A stretch of DNA of 29,672 nucleotides, taken from contig JANOGZ010001263.1 in NCBI GenBank assembly GCA_031406255.1, positions 1-29,672 on the forward strand. Reading direction: 5' to 3'. This stretch comes from Pyrinomonadaceae bacterium (GTDB lineage Bacteria; Acidobacteriota; Blastocatellia; Pyrinomonadales; Pyrinomonadaceae). Positions 910 through 11,605 of the stretch are shown piece by piece. How positions within the stretch are numbered: the first letter of the stretch is position 1; each line of letters starts with the position of its first letter. The notes under the pieces were generated by a model. The model did not search any database, was not told the origin of the DNA, and saw only the letters and a program-made list of their open reading frames with translations. The position numbers and the translations under genes were made by a program.

Positions 910-2184
910 TTAGCCGTTAACTCCCGCCACGGCGTAAGAAGCTGCTTCGATGTCGGCGATCAACTGCGCGAGTTGGGGCTTGATGCGCTCAGGCTCGATA
1001 TAGCCTTTGCCGAGCAAACGGGTGATCTGTCTGGTACCCTTTTCGCCGTCGATTTCTCTCAGCAGCGCGCGGCAGAAAGCGATGACTACTTCCGGGGCAA
1101 ACTGCTTCCCCGTGTTGCTCCGGATGTCTTCGACCACTTCATTGAAGGCGCGCCGCCGTCTGTACGGCCGGTCTGTCGTCATCGCATCGAATGAGTCCGC
1201 CAGGCTCACGATCTTGGCTCCGATCGGGATTTGCTCGTCAGTTAAACCTTCCGGGTAGCCGCGCCCGTCAGGGCGCTCGTGGTGATAGCGCGCCATGAGC
1301 GGAATGTCGGCGTAAGGGTGGTTGATCGGAGCGAGAATCTCATAACCGGCCGCCGGATGGCGGTTGAGTTCGGATGATTGCTTCGCGTCAATCCTATACG
1401 GAGCATTGATGATTTCCCGATCGACGACGAGTTTGCCGATGTCGTGCAGGTAACCGGCGACGGCGATGCCCTCTACCTCGTCATCATTCCATCCCATTTC
1501 GCGGGCGATGATCTCACTGTATTTACCGACGCGCTCCGAGTGGCCCTGCGTGTACTTATCTTTGCAGTCAATGGCGGCCGCGAAGGCGCGTACGGTATCA
1601 CGATAAATCGTGCGGAGATCATCATAGAGGCGGCGGTTCTCCTGCGCGCGCTGCTCGATCTCGGCGAGCAAGCGATGATTATGAATGCCGATGCCGATGT
1701 AGCGCGCCAGCGAACCGATCACTTCGCCATCATCAGCGGTGAGCGGCTCGCCGCTGGCTTTACCGCCGAGCAAAATGACGCCGACCAACTCCCGGCGAAC
1801 GAGAAGCGGCACCACCAGCTCGACGTGGGGGCTGGCCAGCATGTTGCTGCAGCTCGCTGCCAGCCGCGCCGCCGCTTCAGTATCTTCGGAAGCGATCGCC
1901 AGCAGCCCGCAGGCGCCCACCGCGCACAGATCTTCGGCGTCCTGCTCATTAAACGGCACTCCCGATCGCGGCGCTTCTTCGATGCCACGGGTCGCGACGA
2001 ATTTCAGAAGACGCGCGTGGCAATCATATTCCGCCACGGCGCCGCGGCGGATCGCCAGCGTGCCCAGCACCACATGAAGCGCCGAGCGGATCATCTCTTC
2101 AAAATCGCCGGCATCGGCCAGCTCCTGACCTAAATCGGCGTGCGCGGCCGACGCATGCAGGATTTTACGGATTTTCTCAGCCAT
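910..2184 (-). CDS. GAF + HD-GYP cyclic dinucleotide phosphodiesterase
   Basis: Motifs YTQGHSERV, YLHDIGK, HHERPDGRGYP and ADSFDAMTTDRPYR. The N-terminal region is GAF-like (VPLLVRRELVGVILLG). Confidence 0.92.
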   Translation of the reverse strand: MAEKIRKILHASAAHADLGQELADAGDFEEMIRSALHVVLGTLAIRRGAVAEYDCHARLLKFVATRGIEEAPRSGVPFNEQDAEDLCAVGACGLLAIASEDTEAAARLAASCSNMLASPHVELVVPLLVRRELVGVILLGGKASGEPLTADDGEVIGSLARYIGIGIHNHRLLAEIEQRAQENRRLYDDLRTIYRDTVRAFAAAIDCKDKYTQGHSERVGKYSEIIAREMGWNDDEVEGIAVAGYLHDIGKLVVDREIINAPYRIDAKQSSELNRHPAAGYEILAPINHPYADIPLMARYHHERPDGRGYPEGLTDEQIPIGAKIVSLADSFDAMTTDRPYRRRRAFNEVVEDIRSNTGKQFAPEVVIAFCRALLREIDGEKGTRQITRLLGKGYIEPERIKPQLAQLIADIEAASYAVAGVNG

Positions 2185-2199
2185 GAAAGTCTTGACCCC

Positions 2200-2589
2200 T
2201 CAGTGGCCCGAAGCTGTGGCCGGTGAGCTAAACTCGGTCAGAGTCGCCAGCGCGGCCTCCTCGCTCTCTGCCAGCGCGACGCAGCGCATCAGTCCCAGTA
2301 TCTCGAAGAGTTTGACGGTGTCGCGCCTGACGTTCGAGAAGATCAGCCGCGCGCCGCTCTGCTCCGCCGCGTCGATCACCCCCAAAAGGATAGAGACGCC
2401 GATACTGTTAACCAGTTCGGTGTCCCTAAAGTTGAGAACCAGCGCGCGGCACCCCGTCTCCAGCTGGTCGCGGCATTCGCGTTCGACGCGCTCGCCGCTT
2501 AATTTATTGAGGTAATTCCCGGCATAAATGATAGTTATGGCACCGGTGCTCCGAGAGCGCACCGGTGCGTCGGCCACAAATTCTGCCAT
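2200..2589 (-). CDS. STAS domain anti-sigma factor antagonist (RsbV/SpoIIAA-like)
   Basis: 129 aa with LVLNFRDTELVNSIGVSILL (phospho-acceptor Ser in NSIG) and VKLFEILGL. A purine-rich RBS (AGGGGG) overlaps the upstream stop codon. Confidence 0.9.
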   Translation of the reverse strand: MAEFVADAPVRSRSTGAITIIYAGNYLNKLSGERVERECRDQLETGCRALVLNFRDTELVNSIGVSILLGVIDAAEQSGARLIFSNVRRDTVKLFEILGLMRCVALAESEEAALATLTEFSSPATASGH

Positions 2590-2606: not shown

Positions 2607-4898
2607 TTACTTACGCAGATATTTTGTCATCCGCAGGCGCGTCCCGTCATCCACCCGCTCGAACTCCACGTCATCCATGAGCGTGCGGATTAATTTGAGT
2701 CCCCAGCCGCGACGTCCTTTAGTCCCTCCATGTGTTTCGTTGCCGTTGGAGCCCTGCCCCCCAGGCGATTCGCCATTTTGTAGTGCTGCCGGAGAAAGCG
2801 CAAGCCCACGGCTCGAGACTGTGACCACTAATTTATCACTTTCGACGCGAAAGCGTTGATAAATTTTCCGATCCGGGCTGAGACTGTGCTCCGCGGCATT
2901 GATGCAGGCTTCAACCACTGCGGTTTTGATTTGATTGATCGCCTCGGGTTGAAAATTGAGGCGGCGGGCAATTTGTTCGACAGTGTGGGCGGCGATCAAT
3001 TCCGTATCGCCGCCCATCGGGATCACCATCTCGAATTCGTCGAGCGCGACCGAAACGCTCCCGGCGATCCCTCCCGGGCCGAGGCGGGCCGTTAAGAGCT
3101 CGGCCTGCTGGCGGTTTGATCCGAAAGCTTCGCGCTCGTTCAGCAATTCGCTGGCTTCCGCGGAGAACCCCTCCGGCGAGATCAGCCACAGCCGCACGCG
3201 CCCGAAACCGTACGCGAGGCCAACCTGTGTCAGCCGATCGCACCATATCTCGACGAGGGCGCGCCCGGCCTCATGCGTGGCATCGATTTCGACGGCCAGC
3301 CAGACCACTTCGCTGGCATCGGTGTAAGGCACCGCATCGAAACCGTGAGCGACCGCGCACCGCTCCTCATCGCACAGCAACTGCATCGGCGCATGGAACG
3401 CGGCGCAACTCGCGGCATGCACGATCTGCGGTAGACGGATCAGGTCCGTTTCAGTATCGAGGCCGGATATAACCTCATCGGTAGTGATGCCGCGATACAT
3501 ACGGACGAAGCGGTCATGATGGAACAGGCTGGAGGGCACGCGCTGCGCATTGAAGCGTGTCAGTAGATCGCGCGGCTTGAGCGCCGCCGCGCGGCGGTAG
3601 TACCGCGCCATCGTCTGCGGCGCGCGTTTGAGGGTCTCGATCAGCATTCCCGCCACGACGAGGGCGCGCGGCTCGGCTGCGACCTGCAAGCGATAGCTCG
3701 CATGCAGATGATCGCGCCAGACCATGTCCGGGCCGATCTCCACAAAAGTTGCGTTAAGGCTCGCCAGTTCATAAACGTGGAGCCCGGTCATGACGCGTTG
3801 CAACTCGTCCGCATCAAGGTTCAATCTCCTGCGCCACACCTCGGCCGGAGATTTCCCTCCGGTGGTCGCGGCAAACTCATCGAGCACCCGTACCAGTGCG
3901 CGGCGCGTCGCCGGCGCCGGCGCGATCTCTTCCAGCAGCGCGTTAAAGCGGCGGTTGATGCGTCCCCCGAGCAATTCATCAACATATAGCTTCTGACATT
4001 CGAGGAAGCTTGTCAGCGCCCTCCCGGCATCATGCGCCGCCTGCATATAGGCCGTGATAAAAACCGGGTTGCCCGCAAACTGCTGGACCAGCAGATCGCG
4101 CGTCTCATCATTGATCGAGATGCCTTTGCTGAACGCCAACTGGTCAATGAGCCGTCGCGCCTCATGGTCGCTCAAAAGCTCGAGATGAAGCGTTTCCATC
4201 TGATCAAAACGCGCCGTCATCTCCTGCGTCCCGTGCACGACATCCAGCAATCGGCGGCGCAGGCCACTCATCACAAACGGTGATTCTGCTTGAAGCGCTG
4301 CCCGGGCGATTTCGGCGCCGAGGCTGACCTCCCCCTCCAGACATTCCGCGAGGTGAACATCGTCAAAGAGGACGAGCGTCCGTACGCCGCGCGCGGCGGC
4401 TTGCTGCGGCGCGCTCAGGCTCAGACGAATCAACGCGCGTTCGTCGCCTTCCTCGCGCGCGCGCTTGAATGTTTCGAAGAGGCGCTCGATCCACTCGTAA
4501 TCGGAGGGGGCCACCAGTTCCATCAGGGCCGGCAGCGGCGGCGGCGCGCCCAGCAACAGGGCGTCGCCACGATGGTGCGCCACGAGTTGGACGAGGAACG
4601 TGTGAAGAAATCGGCGCGCCGCATTGACGGTTGAATGATCGCTTCGCGTCCACGCAAAATAGATCGGAGAGACGCCCCCACGCTGGTTAAACAACTCATC
4701 ATATGCCTGCCGCAAGAGTTCTGACGCGCCGGCGGAAGGGGCGGTCAGCAGCAGCAGCCAGCGATGTCCGGCGCTATGCGGAGCAAGGCCCGTGATCTGC
4801 TGGAGCGCATCGCGGCGGCCGATGAAGTCCTCCGGCTGAATGCGACCGAGAACACGTCCGCCGGGGGGCGCGCGTTTATGTGGCTTCTCTGTCGGCAT
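2607..4898 (-). CDS. Multidomain protein: degenerate P-loop ATPase-like N-terminus + C-terminal RsbW/HATPase_c-like anti-sigma Ser kinase domain
   Basis: N-terminal DFIGRRDALQQI, pseudo-Walker A TAPSAGASELL and Walker B LVLFDD. C-terminal AVVEACINAAEH and GRRGWGLKLIRTLMDDVEF. I moved the start from 5060 to the ATG at 4898 (763 aa) because the longer ORF overlaps the GGDEF gene by about 185 nt. Confidence 0.8.
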   Translation of the reverse strand: MPTEKPHKRAPPGGRVLGRIQPEDFIGRRDALQQITGLAPHSAGHRWLLLLTAPSAGASELLRQAYDELFNQRGGVSPIYFAWTRSDHSTVNAARRFLHTFLVQLVAHHRGDALLLGAPPPLPALMELVAPSDYEWIERLFETFKRAREEGDERALIRLSLSAPQQAAARGVRTLVLFDDVHLAECLEGEVSLGAEIARAALQAESPFVMSGLRRRLLDVVHGTQEMTARFDQMETLHLELLSDHEARRLIDQLAFSKGISINDETRDLLVQQFAGNPVFITAYMQAAHDAGRALTSFLECQKLYVDELLGGRINRRFNALLEEIAPAPATRRALVRVLDEFAATTGGKSPAEVWRRRLNLDADELQRVMTGLHVYELASLNATFVEIGPDMVWRDHLHASYRLQVAAEPRALVVAGMLIETLKRAPQTMARYYRRAAALKPRDLLTRFNAQRVPSSLFHHDRFVRMYRGITTDEVISGLDTETDLIRLPQIVHAASCAAFHAPMQLLCDEERCAVAHGFDAVPYTDASEVVWLAVEIDATHEAGRALVEIWCDRLTQVGLAYGFGRVRLWLISPEGFSAEASELLNEREAFGSNRQQAELLTARLGPGGIAGSVSVALDEFEMVIPMGGDTELIAAHTVEQIARRLNFQPEAINQIKTAVVEACINAAEHSLSPDRKIYQRFRVESDKLVVTVSSRGLALSPAALQNGESPGGQGSNGNETHGGTKGRRGWGLKLIRTLMDDVEFERVDDGTRLRMTKYLRK

Positions 4899-6996
4899 TG
4901 TTCGATGAGGAATAGGGGTTTGAGGCGGTGAAAGAATTGATGCGGTTCTTACCGCGTTTCTTGGCGACGTAGAGAGCCTGATCGGCCGCGCCGATGATAC
5001 TGGCCGGCGTATCGTGTTCGGGCCCGAAGGCTGAAATGCCGATACTGACGGTGACCGCACCGAGCGGCTGGTTTTTTCCGTGCGGATACTGCATGCGCTC
5101 CACGCGCCGCCGAATGCGCTCGGAGATCACCTGTGCTTCGGAAAGATTTGTCTGCGGAAGTAGGATGCTGAATTCCTCGCCGCCGTAGCGCGAGGCGACG
5201 TCCGCCGACCGCAGCGCCGATTTCAAGCACTGCGCCGTCATCTCCAGCGCAAGATCACCCGCCTGATGCCCGTTGCGGTCGTTATAGTGCTTGAAATCGT
5301 CGATATCAACCATCAGGAAGCTCATCGGGAAGCGGTGACGCTTCGATCTCTCCAATTCTTCCGCCAGCCGCTCTTCGAGATAACGCCGGTTAAGCAATCC
5401 GGTCAGCGGATCGGTAATCGAGAGCAGCTGGAATTGCGTGGCCTTCTGGTGCCACTCCGCGCGATCGAGGGCGAGCGCCATCTGCGGCGCAAACATCTCC
5501 AGTAACCCCAGATCAATTTCATCGTAGATGCCGCCGCCGGCCTTATCCGTGACATTCAGGACTCCGACGCGGCGGCCGCCGATCATGATCGGATAGCTGA
5601 TAAACGAACCGGTTTTATAGCTTCGCTCGGCCGGAGCCGGATCGCGCCCCGAGGCGACCATATCACGCACGACCAGCGGTCGGCCTTCGCTGAGCACCGT
5701 GCCCGAGATGCTCTCGCCGAGGCGGGTGCGAGCCTCGCGGGCGGCCTCGGTGCACGGGCCGATCACGGCTTTGACCGCCAGTTCGTTGGCGCTTTCATCG
5801 AACATCTGGAGCGAGCCGCGCTCGGCATGAAGCAACTGCGTCGAGTGTTGCAGGATCGTCGCATAGGCGTCTTCGGGCTCGACCGCGTTGATATGATCCG
5901 TGAAGGCCTGAAGATGAAAGGCCGCGCGCATGCGCTTTTCCAGCTCTTCGCGGAGGCGGAGCACCTCAAACGGAAGCGCCATCTCGCGACAATAATCAGC
6001 GAGCGCCTGTCGCGTCGCGTCGCTTAAAGGAAGATCGCCAACAATCAACGCCCCTTTAACTTCTTCACCGACGATCAGCGGAAACAGCTCGGCGACCTCT
6101 TTCCGCTTCGAGGTCGAGCGGCCCTCCAAGGGCACTATGACCGATCCACCCTGCTTGACCGCCTGGAGCAAATTATTGTTTTTCGTATCGATCGCGATCC
6201 GCGGCGGGTTGGCAACGAACTTTCCCGTCGCGCAGGAACTGGTGGTGATGAACTCCTCGTCATTACGCAACATCAAGACGAGCGAATCGAGCCTGTGGGC
6301 TTCCGCTAGTGAACGGACGGCAGCGCTGCATACTTCTTTGAAAGTAGTGCCGGGAGGAAAGTAAGAAGAGTTGGGAGGGAAACCGGCTTTCGCCATACTG
6401 GTGGTGCTCGGCGTCGCAGGCACGCCCGCCGCCGCACCCGGTGGCCCCGTCGGCGTCGATTCGCCCGCCGGGCGCGCGGCAACCTCGGCCGCGGCTTGAG
6501 CGATGCGTGTCGCCAGATCGTCGAGGTCTTGAGGGGCGGCGAAGATCACGTTGCGGAACAGGTCAGCGGAGAGCAGTTCGCTGAGATCACCGCTGCGGAC
6601 GCGCTCGGCCAGCGCACGATAATCCGCGCTGTGGAGAAAAGCTCGTCCCCCGATCACAGCCAGGGGGCGTCCTTTCAGCAATCCGACGGGCTGCGTGAAG
6701 CAATTGAGTCCGGCGTGGCAGCGGTAACGCGTTGTGGTACCGGCGCTCATGGCGCGCGCATGGGCTTCTCCGCAGTAGGGATCACAGAGGTGCGCATGTG
6801 TCGGAGATGTTTGAAAAGCGTGGCAGATGGAATTGTTATTCGAGATGGCGAGCTCGGGCGGCTGATGCCCGTCGATCAGCAGAATGGCGAGATCGGTCGC
6901 CGAGGACAGCGATTCCTGCGCCTCCCACCATCCGGAGGGGACTTCCAGTCCGTCTGATTGGATCACGGTTCGCTGTGGGGCAGCAGCTTTATCCAT
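4876..6996 (-). CDS. Diguanylate cyclase with PocR-like sensor and GAF domain(s)
   Basis: TDPLTGLLNRR, DIDDFKHYNDRNGH, RYGGEEF with an intact RxxD I-site (RSAD). The N-terminus has a Cys/His PocR-like pattern (ICHAF..LCDPYC..YRCHAGL). The start could instead be the ATG at 7047. Confidence 0.92.
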   Translation of the reverse strand: MDKAAAPQRTVIQSDGLEVPSGWWEAQESLSSATDLAILLIDGHQPPELAISNNNSICHAFQTSPTHAHLCDPYCGEAHARAMSAGTTTRYRCHAGLNCFTQPVGLLKGRPLAVIGGRAFLHSADYRALAERVRSGDLSELLSADLFRNVIFAAPQDLDDLATRIAQAAAEVAARPAGESTPTGPPGAAAGVPATPSTTSMAKAGFPPNSSYFPPGTTFKEVCSAAVRSLAEAHRLDSLVLMLRNDEEFITTSSCATGKFVANPPRIAIDTKNNNLLQAVKQGGSVIVPLEGRSTSKRKEVAELFPLIVGEEVKGALIVGDLPLSDATRQALADYCREMALPFEVLRLREELEKRMRAAFHLQAFTDHINAVEPEDAYATILQHSTQLLHAERGSLQMFDESANELAVKAVIGPCTEAAREARTRLGESISGTVLSEGRPLVVRDMVASGRDPAPAERSYKTGSFISYPIMIGGRRVGVLNVTDKAGGGIYDEIDLGLLEMFAPQMALALDRAEWHQKATQFQLLSITDPLTGLLNRRYLEERLAEELERSKRHRFPMSFLMVDIDDFKHYNDRNGHQAGDLALEMTAQCLKSALRSADVASRYGGEEFSILLPQTNLSEAQVISERIRRRVERMQYPHGKNQPLGAVTVSIGISAFGPEHDTPASIIGAADQALYVAKKRGKNRINSFTASNPYSSSNNADREAT

Positions 6997-7160
6997 TACC
7001 AATTCTTCTAGTTTGGACAAGATGATCGAGTCCGATCCAAAACGCATTTGAAGGGCATAACGCGGTTCGCGTCTTCAGTGAGGACTGGTGACGCGTGACC
7101 GGACATGCGCCGCGGTCCACCAGGACCGCTCATGTTTTATGGTAAATACCCTATGAGCGC

Positions 7161-7276: not shown

Positions 7277-8431
<1,155 letters not shown>

Positions 8432-8434
8432 CCG

Positions 8435-9520
8435 TTAGTTTCCCGTGTGCTTGGGCGGCAGCGCCGTCGGCAAAGGCGCGCCGGGCGCCCCGGCGCTGCC
8501 GGCAGTGCGCTCATCACGCTCGTGGCACGATATCCCGTAAACTTCTTCAGCAAAATGGCAGAGCGAATGGTGATCCGGAGTCAGTTCGACGAAGGGGGGA
8601 AATTCTCGCCGGCAGATATCTTCGGCGCGCTCGCAGCGCGGCGCGAAGGGGCAGCCCGCGGGAAGGTGCGCAACATCCGGCGGCAGACCCGGTATCTGGT
8701 ACAGCGCGCCCTGCTCGGCGGTCGGGTCCGGCACAGACCGCAGTAACCCTTTGGTGTAGGGATTACCGGGGCAGGAGAAGAGTTCATCGGTCGGAGCCTG
8801 CTCGAAAACTTTTCCGGCGTACATCACGATGATGTGGTCGGTCATTCCGGCGACGACGCCTAGGTCATGCGTAATCAGGATCACGCTCGTGCCCGTCTCT
8901 CGCTTCAACTCTTTGATCAGCTCGAGAATTTGCGCCTGAATCGTCACGTCGAGCGCGGTCGTCGGCTCGTCGGCGATGAGCAGTTCCGGCTCGCACGACA
9001 GGGCCATCGCGATCATCACGCGCTGCCGCATCCCGCCCGAGAATTCATGCGGATAGCTATCGGCCCGCGTCGCGGCGTCGGGGATACCGACCATTTCAAG
9101 CATCTTGATGGCATGCCCATACGCCTGATCTTTCGTGTGGCCGAGATGCAGCTGCGTGATTTCCATCAGCTGCTTCGAGATCCGCATGAAGGGATTGAGC
9201 GACGTCATCGGGTCCTGGAAGATCATCGCGATTCGCTTGCCGCGGATGCGGCGCACCTCGGTCGGGGTCAGGTCGAGGATGTCCTGCCCGTCGAAGAGCA
9301 CTTCGCCGGAAACGATCTTTCCCGGAGGCTCCGGGATCAGACGCAGCACCGAGAGGTTTGTCACCGACTTGCCCGAACCCGACTCCCCGACGATGCCGAG
9401 CGTTTCGCCACGCTTGAGGTCGAAACTAATGCCGTCGACGGCTCTGACCGTGCCATCCTCGGTCTCGAAATACGTGCGGAGGTCTCTGACTGAAAGAAGA
9501 TTTCCGTCGCGGCTGCTCAT
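8435..9520 (-). CDS. oppD: Oligopeptide ABC transporter ATP-binding protein
   Basis: [30 protein letters not shown] and the C-terminal Cys cluster [10 protein letters not shown]. Confidence 0.93.
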
Positions 9521-9593
9521 GGGCTTACTCGTCCCTCGCTATGTTGATCTTTCGTTCGATGAAATATCCCTCCGGAGCGGCTCGCGGGTGGCC

Positions 9594-10679
9594 TTAAAAC
9601 TTTCGCATCTGCGGATCGAGCGCGTCGCGCAACCCGTCGCCGAGGAAATTCAGCGAGAAGAGCGTCAGCGCCATCGTGACGCCCGGAAAAATCAGTTGCC
9701 AGGGGAAGATCGCGATGTTTTGAATACCCTCGGCGGCCAGGCTCCCCCAGGACGCGAGCGGGGCCTGCACGCCGAGACCGAGAAATGAGAGAAAAGATTC
9801 CTGCAGCATCACGGAGGGGATCGTGAGCGTCGCGTACACGATGACGGGGCCGAGCGTATTCGGCACGATATGCTTGAAGATGATTTTGGCGGTCGAAACG
9901 CCGCCAGCCCGCGCCGCCAGCACGAATTCCTGATTCTTGAGCGAGATCACCTGCCCGCGAACGATGCGCGCCATCGTCAGCCACGAAACGGCTCCGAGGG
10001 CGATGAACAGCAGGAACAATTGACCGAGCGGCGTCTGCCCGCCGAACATCGCCAGCAGCACGATGACGATCATCATGTAGGGGATGGCATAGAGCACGTC
10101 GACGATCCGCATCATCACATCATCGACACGTCCTCCGAGATAACCGGCCGTCGCGCCGTAAGTGATACCGATGATGAGCGAAACGATCGTCGAGATGATG
10201 CCGACCATGAGCGAGATGCGGCCGCCTAAGAGCACGCGCGCCAGAATATCGCGGCCCGCGCTATCCGTCCCCATCGGATGCAACCACGAGAACGAACCGT
10301 CAGGCGCTGTAAAGGGCCCAAAGGATCTGATCAGATTGGAATCTTCCGGAATGTAATCGTAGGTGTAGCCGGTGGTATTGCGAATGATCGGCGGCCCGAC
10401 GAGCGACGCGAGGATAATGATGGCGACCACGATCATCCCGAAAACCGCCAGCTTGTTCTTCAGTAACCGCCGCCACGCGTCCTTCCAGAGAGACGTGCCG
10501 GAGACGGTATCCGTGCCGAGGTCAACCGAGCGCACGTCGCCTTCGCCGACGGCGAGTTCGGGCGCGGTGTGAATCATGTCGCCCGCGCGCGCGCGCACCG
10601 GCGGCGCCGGCGGCGTGCCGAGCGGCGTCAGCGCCGGCTCGGCCTGTTCAGTTTGCGCAAGAGGTCGTTCGTCCTTCAT
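9594..10679 (-). CDS. oppC: Oligopeptide ABC transporter permease
   Basis: LWKDAWRRLLKNKLA, HPMGTDSAGRDIL, EFVLAARAGG (EAA-like loop) and GDGLRDALDP. Confidence 0.93.
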   Translation of the reverse strand: MKDERPLAQTEQAEPALTPLGTPPAPPVRARAGDMIHTAPELAVGEGDVRSVDLGTDTVSGTSLWKDAWRRLLKNKLAVFGMIVVAIIILASLVGPPIIRNTTGYTYDYIPEDSNLIRSFGPFTAPDGSFSWLHPMGTDSAGRDILARVLLGGRISLMVGIISTIVSLIIGITYGATAGYLGGRVDDVMMRIVDVLYAIPYMMIVIVLLAMFGGQTPLGQLFLLFIALGAVSWLTMARIVRGQVISLKNQEFVLAARAGGVSTAKIIFKHIVPNTLGPVIVYATLTIPSVMLQESFLSFLGLGVQAPLASWGSLAAEGIQNIAIFPWQLIFPGVTMALTLFSLNFLGDGLRDALDPQMRKF

Positions 10680-10684
10680 GGTTT

Positions 10685-11605
10685 TTAGTACCGTATGCGT
10701 GGGTCGATGTAAGCGTAGGCCATGTCAACCAGAAAGTTGAAGAGCAAAATCAGGATCGAGATGAAAGCGACGATGCCGATGATCAGCGGTTCATCGCGGT
10801 TCAGATTCGCGTTGATGAAGTAGTTTCCGAGCCCCGGCAGCGCGAAGATTCTCTCGACGACGACCGTTCCGGTCACGAGAAAAGCCAGCGCCGGGCCGGT
10901 GAATGAAACGACCGGAAGCAAACCGCCGCGCAGCGCGTGCCGCATGACGACCTGCCGCTCCCGCAAACCCTTCGCGCGGGCCGTCCGGATATAATCGGCG
11001 CGCAGCACCTCGAGCATTCCGGAACGCGTCAGGCGCGCGATATAAGCCATGTAGATCGCCGAGAGCGTGATCACCGGCATCACCAGATTCCAGCTCGGGA
11101 AACCATTCCAGCGCGCCGGGGGCAGCCAGTACAAGGTCAGCGAAAAGATGAGCACGAGGATCGGTCCGAGCACGAAATTAGGAAGCGAGATGCCGAGCAT
11201 CGCCAGCGCCATCGAGGCGTAATCCAGGCGCGAGTTTTGCTTCAGCGCGGCCAGTGTCCCGGCGATGACGCCGACGGCCAGCGCCAGCAGGTATGCCATG
11301 ATCCCCAGCGTCGCTGAAATAGGAAGGGTGCGCGCCAGGATGCGGAGGACGGATTGCCCCTCATACTTCAGCGATGTGCCGAAATCACCGCGCAGGACGT
11401 TGCCGATCATCCGGCCGTACTGCACATACCACGGCTTATCGAGCCCGTATTTCTCGCGCAGGTTTTTTTCGATGGCGGGCGGGAGCTTTTTCTCGGACGT
11501 GTAGAAATTGCCGGGCGCGAGCCTGATCAAGCCCCACGTGAGGCTGATGACGATCAACATCATTGGCACAATGACGATCAAACGTCGGATGGCGAATCGA
11601 AACAT
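10685..11605 (-). CDS. oppB: Oligopeptide ABC transporter permease
   Basis: YGLDKP, GDFGTS, DYIRTARAKGL and YAYIDPRIRY. Confidence 0.93.
   Translation of the reverse strand: MFRFAIRRLIVIVPMMLIVISLTWGLIRLAPGNFYTSEKKLPPAIEKNLREKYGLDKPWYVQYGRMIGNVLRGDFGTSLKYEGQSVLRILARTLPISATLGIMAYLLALAVGVIAGTLAALKQNSRLDYASMALAMLGISLPNFVLGPILVLIFSLTLYWLPPARWNGFPSWNLVMPVITLSAIYMAYIARLTRSGMLEVLRADYIRTARAKGLRERQVVMRHALRGGLLPVVSFTGPALAFLVTGTVVVERIFALPGLGNYFINANLNRDEPLIIGIVAFISILILLFNFLVDMAYAYIDPRIRY

What the first reader, a model, noticed from the sequence alone, without database searches (positions are those of the whole stretch)
2607..4898. Unusual fusion: pseudo-ATPase + helical/wHTH region + nuclease-like fold + RsbW
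Seen: Walker A lacks the Lys (TAPSAGASELL) while Walker B (LVLFDD) is kept. Just before the kinase domain is VVWLAVEI...LWLISPEGFSAEA. Known: archaeal-type ATPases (ATPase_2 + wHTH + DUF234) and Mrr-like domains end in a PD-(D/E)XK fold with a similar hydrophobic-S-x-x-G-F motif. Inference: an inactivated ATPase/nuclease-fold scaffold was recruited as the sensory arm of an anti-sigma-type kinase. I do not recognise this as a characterised architecture.
Basis: partly seen in the sequence, partly recalled or inferred. Interest (0 to 1): 0.65.

Follow-up and report, generated by a model that had tools for sequence, protein, structure and literature searches.

The report
Giant partner-switch kinase beside c-di-GMP enzymes
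This 763-residue protein of soil Acidobacteria joins an archaeal-type ATPase switch, a DNA-binding-type winged helix and a nuclease-fold domain to an RsbW-type kinase; it sits in a fixed four-gene cassette with the enzymes that make and break c-di-GMP, and the key nucleotide-binding residue is missing from both of its ATP-binding modules.

Summary
The gene (2607-4898, minus strand) encodes a 763-aa protein with TAPSAGASELL at 52-62 (Lys replaced by Ala), LVLFDD at 175-180 and LWLISPEGFSAEA at 570-582.

A confident AlphaFold model (pLDDT 87) gives four parts:
- Residues 17-400: an ATPase_2-type NTPase, lid and winged helix (2qen Z 23.1, 2fna Z 22.9; hhalign 94% to acidobacterial ATPase_2-DUF234 proteins).
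- Residues 443-612: a PD-(D/E)XK fold (AF1548 Z 9.3, followed by restriction and CRISPR-ancillary nucleases).
- Residues 620-763: an RsbW fold (Z 19.0).

- The kinase lacks the G1-box Asp (SSRG). It is Asn or Ser in 98/98 members, while seven paralogues in the same genome keep DxGxG.
- Most members keep a (D/E)xK nuclease motif, so the nuclease fold is not generally inactivated. This copy alone has Thr at 541.
- A sister clade keeps the Walker A Lys.

The family is single-copy and was found only in Blastocatellia (16/16 Pyrinomonadaceae genomes). It lies in a conserved order: GGDEF cyclase, this protein, STAS protein (Ser invariant), HD-GYP phosphodiesterase. No PP2C phosphatase is linked.

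Best reading: a sensor or scaffold that binds the STAS protein, and possibly phosphorylates it, to tune c-di-GMP turnover. I found no description of this architecture. It is a new variant of a known kind.

The parts
2607..4898 (-). Whole gene: 763-aa ATPase_2-like / winged helix / PD-(D/E)XK-fold / RsbW-like protein (P0002)
4179..4841 (-). P-loop NTPase core (residues 20-240) with the FIGR motif at 25-28
   Evidence: AF2 model. VIA: 2qen Z 23.1 and 2fna Z 22.9 over residues 17-400. hhalign 94.3% to ATPase_2-DUF234 proteins.
4713..4745 (-). Lys-less Walker A, TAPSAGASELL (residues 52-62; A58 stands in place of Lys)
4359..4376 (-). Walker B, LVLFDD (residues 175-180). D179 is kept in 97/98. The sensor-like LRRR at 213-216 follows.
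3729..4169 (-). Helical lid (residues 244-345) and winged helix (349-390)
   Evidence: Secondary structure of the model. Aligned to the lid and winged helix of 2qen/2fna and of ATPase_2-DUF234 proteins.
3579..3725 (-). Long helical connector (residues 392-440)
3063..3572 (-). PD-(D/E)XK (restriction-endonuclease-like) fold domain, residues 443-612
   Evidence: Domain model pLDDT 92.5. VIA wide search: AF1548 Z 9.3, then R.BspD6I, NucS, Can2, FokI, MspJI, Card1. Weak Foldseek hits to MspJI and EndoMS. No Pfam hit.
3276..3290 (-). EIDAT (residues 537-541), where the family has E-I-[DE]-S-K. The nuclease-type Lys is Thr (codon ACG) in this copy only.
3153..3191 (-). Strand beta-4 with the 'GF' motif, LWLISPEGFSAEA (residues 570-582)
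   Evidence: W571, G577 and F578 are near-invariant. This is the only stretch aligned to Mrr_cat and DUF234 profiles.
2610..3041 (-). RsbW/SpoIIAB-type GHKL domain (residues 620-763). The lid at 700-728 is disordered and of variable length.
   Evidence: Pfam HATPase_c_2 E 2.6e-19. 6m36 E 3e-9. VIA Z 19.0, rmsd 1.4.
2886..2912 (-). N-box, EACINAAEH (E663, N667, H671 kept)
2805..2816 (-). Degenerate G1 box, SSRG, in place of DxGxG (S696 replaces the adenine-binding Asp)
2697..2714 (-). G2 box, RRGWGL, with family-specific Arg-Arg and Trp
4876..7047 (-). Upstream gene: PocR-GAF-GGDEF diguanylate cyclase (GGEEF at 622, I-site RSAD at 613)
   Evidence: Synteny.
2200..2589 (-). Downstream gene: single-domain STAS protein. 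Ser62 in the NSIG motif is invariant in 14 orthologues.
910..2184 (-). Last gene of the cassette: GAF-HD-GYP c-di-GMP phosphodiesterase (HDIGK at 247, GRGYP at 307)
   Evidence: Synteny.

Best explanation
The protein is the central component of a partner-switching module built into a c-di-GMP synthesis and breakdown cassette: GGDEF cyclase, this protein, STAS protein, HD-GYP phosphodiesterase. Its C-terminal RsbW-type domain binds the neighbouring STAS protein and may phosphorylate it on Ser62. The STAS protein, when free, binds the cyclase and/or the phosphodiesterase and changes c-di-GMP output, as HsbA, BgrV and SiaC do for their cyclases. The N-terminal 612 residues descend from a stand-alone ATPase_2 / winged-helix / restriction-endonuclease-fold type of protein. 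They act as an input and oligomerisation switch that sets whether the RsbW domain holds or releases STAS. In Pyrinomonadaceae this switch has lost the Walker A Lys, so it most likely binds a ligand without hydrolysing it. What is shown: the domain folds, the motif states, the family range and the gene order. What is inferred: the protein contacts, the direction of control and the input signal.
For: Folds: full model pLDDT 87.3. Residues 17-400 match 2qen (Z 23.1) and 2fna (Z 22.9); residues 620-761 match RsbW 6m36 (Z 19.0, rmsd 1.4). The N-terminal module matches ATPase_2-DUF234 proteins by hhalign (prob 94.3%, E 1e-7). Residues 443-612 have a PD-(D/E)XK fold.

Gene context: the order cyclase, this gene, STAS, HD-GYP is kept in 13 of 14 fetched loci, down to 28% identity. 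In the window the genes overlap or lie 15-17 nt apart. The gene is single-copy. It was found in 16/16 genomes of its own family and 2/2 of one sister family, and 449 relatives were found among GTDB species genomes.

Partner enzymes: the STAS phospho-acceptor Ser is invariant in 14 orthologues. The cyclase and the phosphodiesterase keep their catalytic motifs.

Precedent: STAS-type proteins of partner switches regulate the cyclases BgrR, HsbD and SiaD (PMC8457831) and CfcR (10.1101/2024.11.25.625174).
Against: No contact between this protein, the STAS protein and the two enzymes was tested. No PP2C phosphatase lies on the cassette contig in this genome or in five relatives, so a phosphorylation cycle is not complete locally. 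The G1-box Asp that binds adenine in GHKL proteins is Asn or Ser in all 98 members, and the equivalent engineered change in RsbT (D78N) kills kinase activity (PMC11821858). Phosphorylation may therefore not occur at all. The input signal is unknown. The conserved (D/E)xK site in most members hints at an enzymatic or ligand-binding role that this model does not explain.
Confidence: 0.55

Rival explanations
1. The RsbW-like domain is a pseudokinase. The protein never phosphorylates the STAS protein and only sequesters it. Release is governed by ligand binding to the N-terminal switch, so this would be a phosphorylation-free partner switch.
For: The G1 Asp is absent in 98/98 members, while seven paralogues in the same genome keep DxGxG. 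RsbT D78N is kinase-dead yet still binds its partners (PMC11821858). Natural kinase-negative RsbW homologues exist (PMC7693655). No PP2C gene is linked to the cassette in 6 genomes.
Against: The N-box (E663, N667, H671) and the G2 box (R730, G731, G733, L734) are almost invariant across sequences that are only about 30% identical. That is not expected if the nucleotide pocket were unused. The STAS Ser is also invariant. Unlinked PP2C genes are present in every genome searched.
Confidence: 0.3
2. It is a classical anti-sigma factor. The RsbW domain sequesters an alternative sigma factor encoded elsewhere, the STAS protein is its antagonist, and the c-di-GMP genes are merely co-transcribed targets or neighbours.
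For: The closest sequence and fold relatives are RsbW and SpoIIAB, both anti-sigma factors. An adjacent STAS protein is typical of such systems.
Against: No sigma factor gene lies inside the four-gene cassette in the window, and the same tight order recurs in 13 of 14 loci. Where extra genes sit between this gene and STAS, those I scanned are unrelated cargo. In contrast, the cyclase and the phosphodiesterase are always present. I did not search the wider flanks or the genome for sigma factor genes.
Confidence: 0.1
3. It is an anti-phage or conflict system of the Avs/STAND type, in which an NTPase switch controls a nuclease effector.
For: The NTPase, winged helix and PD-(D/E)XK layout recalls STAND defence proteins. 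Avs4, Hachiman, Shedu, Can2 and Card1 nuclease domains appear among the fold matches. Most members keep a (D/E)xK motif.
Against: There is no PADLOC match. The gene is single-copy, present in every genome of its family that I searched, and sits in a fixed chromosomal context that includes the flanking ABC transporter genes. That pattern is the opposite of variable defence islands. It is fused to a signalling domain and flanked by c-di-GMP enzymes.
Confidence: 0.05

Closest known systems
RsbW / SpoIIAB anti-sigma factor serine kinases (Pfam HATPase_c_2; PDB 6m36, 1til)
   Same: The C-terminal 144 residues have the same fold (Z 19.0, rmsd 1.4 over 105 residues). The N-box and G2 box are kept, and a STAS partner with the acceptor Ser is encoded next door.
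   Different: RsbW and SpoIIAB are about 140-160 residues long and stand alone. Here the domain is the tail of a 763-aa protein. The G1 DxGxG is [SN]-[RK]-G. The pocket gains R697, R729, R730 and W732. No sigma factor or PP2C gene lies in the operon.
Partner-switch-regulated diguanylate cyclases: HptB-HsbR-HsbA/HsbD (Pseudomonas), BgrSTUWV/BgrR (Sinorhizobium), SiaABC/SiaD
   Same: A kinase plus a STAS-type switch protein is encoded together with a GGDEF cyclase. In those systems the switch protein binds the cyclase directly (PMC8457831).
   Different: Those kinases are small, or are domains fused to receiver or PP2C domains, and a phosphatase belongs to the system. Here the kinase carries an ATPase_2 / winged-helix / nuclease-fold module. 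An HD-GYP phosphodiesterase is also in the operon, and no phosphatase is linked.
ATPase_2 ('archaeal ATPase', PF01637) proteins with a C-terminal DUF234 or Mrr_cat domain; structures 2fna (SSO1545) and 2qen (PABY2304)
   Same: The order is the same: FxGR motif, P-loop NTPase, lid, winged helix, then a PD-(D/E)XK-fold domain. The 'ELLRQ' continuation of the P-loop is shared. hhalign gives 94% over residues 6-381, and Z is about 23 to both structures.
   Different: Those proteins are about 350-480 aa, keep GKT, have no kinase and have no known function. The nuclease-fold domain here is not detectably related in sequence to DUF234 (hhalign prob 0.6%) or to Mrr_cat (8.6%).
STAND NTPases with inactive restriction-endonuclease domains (Pfam NA-iREase1, PF22722) and Avs-type defence proteins
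   Same: An NTPase switch is combined with a restriction-endonuclease-fold domain used as a sensor or effector.
   Different: There are no repeat sensor arrays, no defence-island context and a different domain order. Membership was not shown: the Pfam scan at E up to 10 gave no hit.

Membership tests
RsbW/SpoIIAB-type serine kinase (HATPase_c_2) | Bergerat (GHKL) fold with a Pfam HATPase_c_2 match above the cut-off | tested here: met
   69.9 bits against a cut-off of 27.4. 6m36 Z 19.0, rmsd 1.4.
RsbW/SpoIIAB-type serine kinase (HATPase_c_2) | N-box (E..N...H) for Mg-ATP | tested here: met
   E663 in 98/98, N667 in 96/98, H671 in 96/98.
RsbW/SpoIIAB-type serine kinase (HATPase_c_2) | G1 box DxGxG, with the adenine-binding Asp | tested here: not met
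   The window has SSRG. Position 696 is N in 75 and S in 23 of 98, never D. Seven paralogues in the same genome have D.
RsbW/SpoIIAB-type serine kinase (HATPase_c_2) | G2 box GxGL | tested here: met
   RRGWGL. G731 in 96, G733 in 97, L734 in 91 of 98.
RsbW/SpoIIAB-type serine kinase (HATPase_c_2) | Adjacent STAS substrate with the acceptor Ser | tested here: met
   STAS gene at 2200-2589. The NSIG Ser62 is invariant in 14 orthologues.
RsbW/SpoIIAB-type serine kinase (HATPase_c_2) | Kinase activity, or binding of a sigma factor | not testable with these tools
   Needs biochemistry.
ATPase_2 / AAA_16 P-loop NTPases with winged helix | Fold of NTPase core, lid and winged helix | tested here: met
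   2qen Z 23.1 (326 of 350 residues aligned) and 2fna Z 22.9.
ATPase_2 / AAA_16 P-loop NTPases with winged helix | Sequence-profile relationship | tested here: met
   hhalign prob 94.3%, E 1e-7, against 22 acidobacterial ATPase_2-DUF234 proteins. AAA_16 is matched by 19/33 members (best E 5.5e-8) and ATPase_2 by 3/33. The window's own AAA_16 score of 18.6 bits is below the 32.6 cut-off.
ATPase_2 / AAA_16 P-loop NTPases with winged helix | Walker A GxxxxGK[ST] | tested here: not met
   The window has APSAGAS. Lys is present in only 9/98 members.
ATPase_2 / AAA_16 P-loop NTPases with winged helix | Walker B hhhhD[DE] | tested here: met
   LVLFDD. D179 in 97/98. The second acidic residue is kept in only 47/98.
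PD-(D/E)XK nuclease superfamily (Mrr_cat / DUF234) | Restriction-endonuclease-like alpha-beta-beta-beta-alpha-beta fold | tested here: met
   AF1548 Z 9.3 (rmsd 2.6, 104 residues). The top 13 rows, and most rows below them, are PD-(D/E)XK nuclease domains.
PD-(D/E)XK nuclease superfamily (Mrr_cat / DUF234) | Sequence membership in Mrr_cat or DUF234 | tested here: not met
   No Pfam hit at E up to 10 for 15 members. hhalign prob 8.6% to Mrr_cat and 0.6% to DUF234. Only the beta-4 'GF' motif aligns.
PD-(D/E)XK nuclease superfamily (Mrr_cat / DUF234) | Catalytic D ... (D/E)xK residues | tested here: inconclusive
   Family: D/E510 in 69, E/D512 in 73, E537 in 79, D/E539 in 83, K541 in 93 of 98. 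The window has T541, and the Lys-containing P-loop clade has L537 and N539. Which residue is the upstream acidic one was assigned from hairpin geometry, not from a superposition.
Partner-switch-controlled c-di-GMP modules (HsbA/HsbD, BgrV/BgrR, SiaC/SiaD) | Kinase, STAS-type protein and GGDEF cyclase encoded together | tested here: met
   The order is conserved in 13/14 loci.
Partner-switch-controlled c-di-GMP modules (HsbA/HsbD, BgrV/BgrR, SiaC/SiaD) | Cognate PP2C phosphatase in the system | tested here: not met
   No SpoIIE/PP2C match on the cassette contig in this genome or in 5 relatives. Unlinked copies exist.
Partner-switch-controlled c-di-GMP modules (HsbA/HsbD, BgrV/BgrR, SiaC/SiaD) | The switch protein binds and regulates the cyclase | not testable with these tools
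   Needs binding and enzyme assays.
Anti-phage defence systems (PADLOC) | Match to a known defence protein model | tested here: not met
   0 families at E up to 1.

The most novel reading that the evidence does not exclude
The GHKL pocket has been re-tuned from adenine to a guanine nucleotide: GTP, c-di-GMP, pGpG or (p)ppGpp. The adenine-accepting Asp is replaced family-wide by Asn or Ser, which can donate a hydrogen bond to guanine O6. The pocket also gains R697, R729, R730 and W732, while the Mg-binding N-box and the G2 glycines stay invariant. The protein would then read the product or substrate pool of its two neighbouring enzymes directly and feed that back through the STAS protein. That would be a c-di-GMP- or GTP-gated partner switch. 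The conserved (D/E)xK site of the nuclease-fold domain could be a second nucleotide-binding or cleaving site.
Probability: 0.15. Interest if true: 0.85.

Novelty: new variant of a known kind. Interest (0 to 1): 0.58.

Why it matters
Partner switches and c-di-GMP signalling are both well studied, but almost entirely in Bacillota and Pseudomonadota. This finding shows a lineage-wide, single-copy cassette in a dominant group of soil Acidobacteria. In it the switch kinase is fused to a complete ATPase_2 / winged-helix / nuclease-fold protein, a module that has no assigned function anywhere. The cassette therefore offers a functional context for that orphan module. It also provides natural variants of the two classic nucleotide-binding signatures: a P-loop without Lys and a GHKL G1 box without Asp, with the rest of each pocket conserved. 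Finally, it gives a testable route to how Pyrinomonadaceae control c-di-GMP.

Tried and rejected
- Sequence searches of the 443-612 domain gave nothing usable. These were Pfam at E up to 10 and a profile against PDB sequences.
- Foldseek on that domain alone gave only weak rows, with best E 0.009. The fold call rests on VIA-align.
- hhalign of the domain against Mrr_cat and DUF234 alignments made from natural acidobacterial sequences was not significant, so I do not file the domain in either family.
- I looked for a stand-alone 'ATPase / winged helix / Mrr_cat' protein among Mrr_cat hits in Blastocatellia. The two long ORFs I checked were helicase-Mrr fusions and not relevant.
- Genes inserted between this gene and STAS in four genomes were tested as candidate phosphatases. 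In the three I scanned they are unrelated cargo: HipA, DUF559, a trypsin-like protease and arsenic-resistance genes.
- The defence-system reading was rejected because there is no PADLOC match and because of the fixed core-genome context.
- A FastTree of 98 members shows the Lys-containing P-loop clade as one group plus one singleton. It is unrooted, so which state is ancestral is inferred from general P-loop knowledge, not shown.
- The reciprocal pattern (Lys kept where the acidic nuclease site is lost, and the reverse) rests on about two evolutionary events. I make no statistical claim from it.
Neighbourhoods were taken from the genome search and the fetch from genomes instead.
I therefore could not examine inter-domain contacts or make a residue-level superposition on a nuclease active site.
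Full report
**Observation**

The finding covers one gene on the minus strand, 2607-4898, encoding 763 residues (P0002). Its ATG at 4898 lies 23 nt inside the end of the upstream gene.
- TAPSAGASELL at residues 52-62, with Ala where the Walker A Lys belongs.
- LVLFDD at residues 175-180.
- VVWLAVEI at residues 531-538.
- LWLISPEGFSAEA at residues 570-582.

Pfam sees only the C-terminal HATPase_c_2 domain (residues 636-759, E 2.6e-19) and a sub-threshold AAA_16 match. NCBIfam gives only partial RsbW and SpoIIAB matches. PADLOC gives nothing. The only solved relatives by sequence are RsbW and SpoIIAB.

**Family and range**

A word-indexed search returned more than 1000 relatives. The 120 listed are about 740-780 aa long, and those that carry a name are labelled Pyrinomonadaceae or Acidobacteriota and 'ATP-binding protein' or 'RsbW'.

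An exhaustive HMMER search with residues 1-620 alone found 444 clusters (173 at E below 1e-30). All complete hits are 700-780 aa, so the N-terminal part is found with the kinase and hardly ever alone.

Across 301 genomes of the phylum, the gene is single-copy in 16/16 genomes of the window's own family and in 2/2 of one sister family of the same class. It was not found in the other genomes searched. A scan of GTDB species genomes gave 449 relatives. The 80 listed are nearly all named Pyrinomonadaceae, Pyrinomonadales, Blastocatellia or Acidobacteriota MAGs; two carry other labels.

**Gene context**

The window carries, on the minus strand and tightly packed:
- a PocR-GAF-GGDEF cyclase (GGEEF motif, I-site RSAD);
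- this gene;
- a single-domain STAS protein;
- a GAF-HD-GYP phosphodiesterase (HDIGK, GRGYP).

The same order is found in 13 of 14 loci fetched from other genomes, down to 28% identity. Even the upstream ABC transporter genes are often kept. In four genomes 2-4 kb of extra DNA sits between this gene and STAS, and in the three I scanned it encodes unrelated cargo.

The STAS acceptor Ser (NSIG, Ser62) is invariant in 14 orthologues. No PP2C phosphatase lies on the cassette contig here or in five relatives, although unlinked copies exist.

**Structure**

An AlphaFold2 model built on 33 diverse homologues is confident (pLDDT 87.3, pTM 0.70).
- Residues 17-400 align almost end to end with the archaeal Walker-type ATPases 2qen (Z 23.1) and 2fna (Z 22.9). 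Orc/Cdc6 and STAND proteins follow at Z about 17-19.
- Profile comparison with 22 natural ATPase_2-DUF234 proteins from other Acidobacteria gives 94.3% probability over residues 6-381. This covers the NTPase core, the lid and the winged helix.
- Residues 443-612, modelled alone (pLDDT 92.5), match PD-(D/E)XK domains throughout the top of the list. AF1548 leads at Z 9.3 (rmsd 2.6 over 104 residues), followed by R.BspD6I, NucS, Can2, Cdn1, FokI, AspBHI, MspJI, LlaBIII and Card1.
- Sequence profiles do not place this domain in Mrr_cat or DUF234. Only the beta-4 'GF' motif aligns.
- Language-model look-alikes point the same way but are leads only.
- Residues 620-763 superpose on RsbW at rmsd 1.4.

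**Motif states across 98 full-length members**

P-loop:
- P54, G57, S/T59, E60 and the Walker B residue D179 are nearly invariant.
- The Walker A Lys occurs in only 9 members. Eight of them form one clade, which includes the two sister-family genomes (GAPRAGKTE).
- The P-loop is therefore maintained but Lys-less in Pyrinomonadaceae.

Nuclease-fold domain:
- Most members keep E537 (79), D/E539 (83) and K541 (93).
- Acidic residues are also common at 510 and 512, at the start of the neighbouring strand. This is the geometry of a PD-(D/E)XK site.
- The window's copy is the only one with Thr at 541 (codon ACG).
- The clade that keeps the Walker A Lys has L537 and N539 instead.

Kinase domain:
- The N-box and the G2 box are invariant.
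- The G1 Asp is never present: it is Asn in 75 members and Ser in 23.
- All seven other HATPase_c_2 domains aligned from the same genome have DxGxG.
- The pocket also carries the family-specific residues R697, R729, R730 and W732.

In my own knowledge of GHKL proteins, this Asp accepts the adenine N6 hydrogen bond. RsbT D78N is kinase-dead but still binds its partners (PMC11821858); that D78 is the G1 Asp is my inference from its position. Natural kinase-negative RsbW homologues are known (PMC7693655).

**Interpretation**

The best-supported reading has three parts.
1. A stand-alone type of protein (ATPase_2, winged helix, nuclease fold) was fused to an RsbW-type domain.
2. The fusion protein now serves as the sensor or scaffold of a partner switch.
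3. The STAS protein of that switch acts on the adjacent c-di-GMP enzymes.

Partner switches that regulate cyclases through STAS-type proteins are established: BgrV/BgrR, HsbA/HsbD and SiaC/SiaD (PMC8457831), and HsbA/CfcR.

Whether STAS is phosphorylated or only sequestered is open. The missing G1 Asp and the missing linked phosphatase argue for sequestration. The invariant N-box, G2 box and STAS Ser argue for a working nucleotide pocket. A pocket re-tuned to a guanine nucleotide would reconcile these facts, but it is speculative.

The classical anti-sigma and defence-system readings are less likely, given the fixed gene context.

The domain predictions and the Lys-less P-loop are confirmed, and the stated refutation test was passed.

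Three things change the picture:
- the nuclease motif is largely intact in the family;
- the kinase is itself non-canonical;
- a sister clade keeps the Walker A Lys.

An earlier first-stage note of this scan (e1-5287497) describes the same operon as coupling c-di-GMP turnover to a partner switch. My synteny analysis agrees with it.

**Verdict**

This is a real and strongly conserved multidomain signalling protein, for which I found no published description. It is a new variant of the partner-switch kind, with moderate-to-high interest.

Noticed in passing
window 3276-3278 (codon ACG, residue 541): This genome's copy is the only one of 98 family members with Thr in place of the near-invariant Lys of the E-I-[DE]-S-K motif. 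The closest relatives (63-70% identical) keep the Lys. It is either a lineage-specific loss or an assembly error in a 1384-contig MAG.
   Followed up: partly
L029 and L033 (sister-family genomes) and P0208, P0217, P0228, P0230, P0232, P0239: The clade that keeps the Walker A Lys (GKT/GKS) lacks the acidic residues of the nuclease-like site (L537, N539), and five of its eight members have Asn as the second Walker B residue. The Lys-less clade keeps the acidic site. The pattern is reciprocal but rests on about two evolutionary events.
   Followed up: partly
L025 3553-5849, L026 8536-10731, L027 8562-12266, L028 about 8560-11579: The junction between this gene and the STAS gene is a recurrent insertion point. 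In the three loci I scanned, it holds different cargo in each genome: a HipA toxin, a DUF559 endonuclease-like gene plus a trypsin-like protease, and arsenic-resistance genes.
   Followed up: partly
window 2200-2589 (STAS) and its orthologues: The residue before the acceptor Ser is Asn (NSIG) in all 14 orthologues, instead of the Asp of SpoIIAA and RsbV (DSSG, DSTG). This parallels the Asp-to-Asn/Ser change in the kinase G1 box.
   Followed up: no
window 7277-9520: Two oligopeptide-type ABC ATPase genes directly upstream of the cassette keep their position next to it in most related genomes. I did not examine whether they are functionally linked.
   Followed up: no
Acidobacteriota genomes outside Blastocatellia (L164-L191): Stand-alone ATPase_2 / winged-helix / DUF234 proteins of about 460-480 aa occur in 19 of 201 genomes of the phylum and in 0 of 10 Pyrinomonadaceae. 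Their P-loop reads GRRRxGKTxLLxxF, close to the xAPxAGxSELLRQ of this family.
   Followed up: partly
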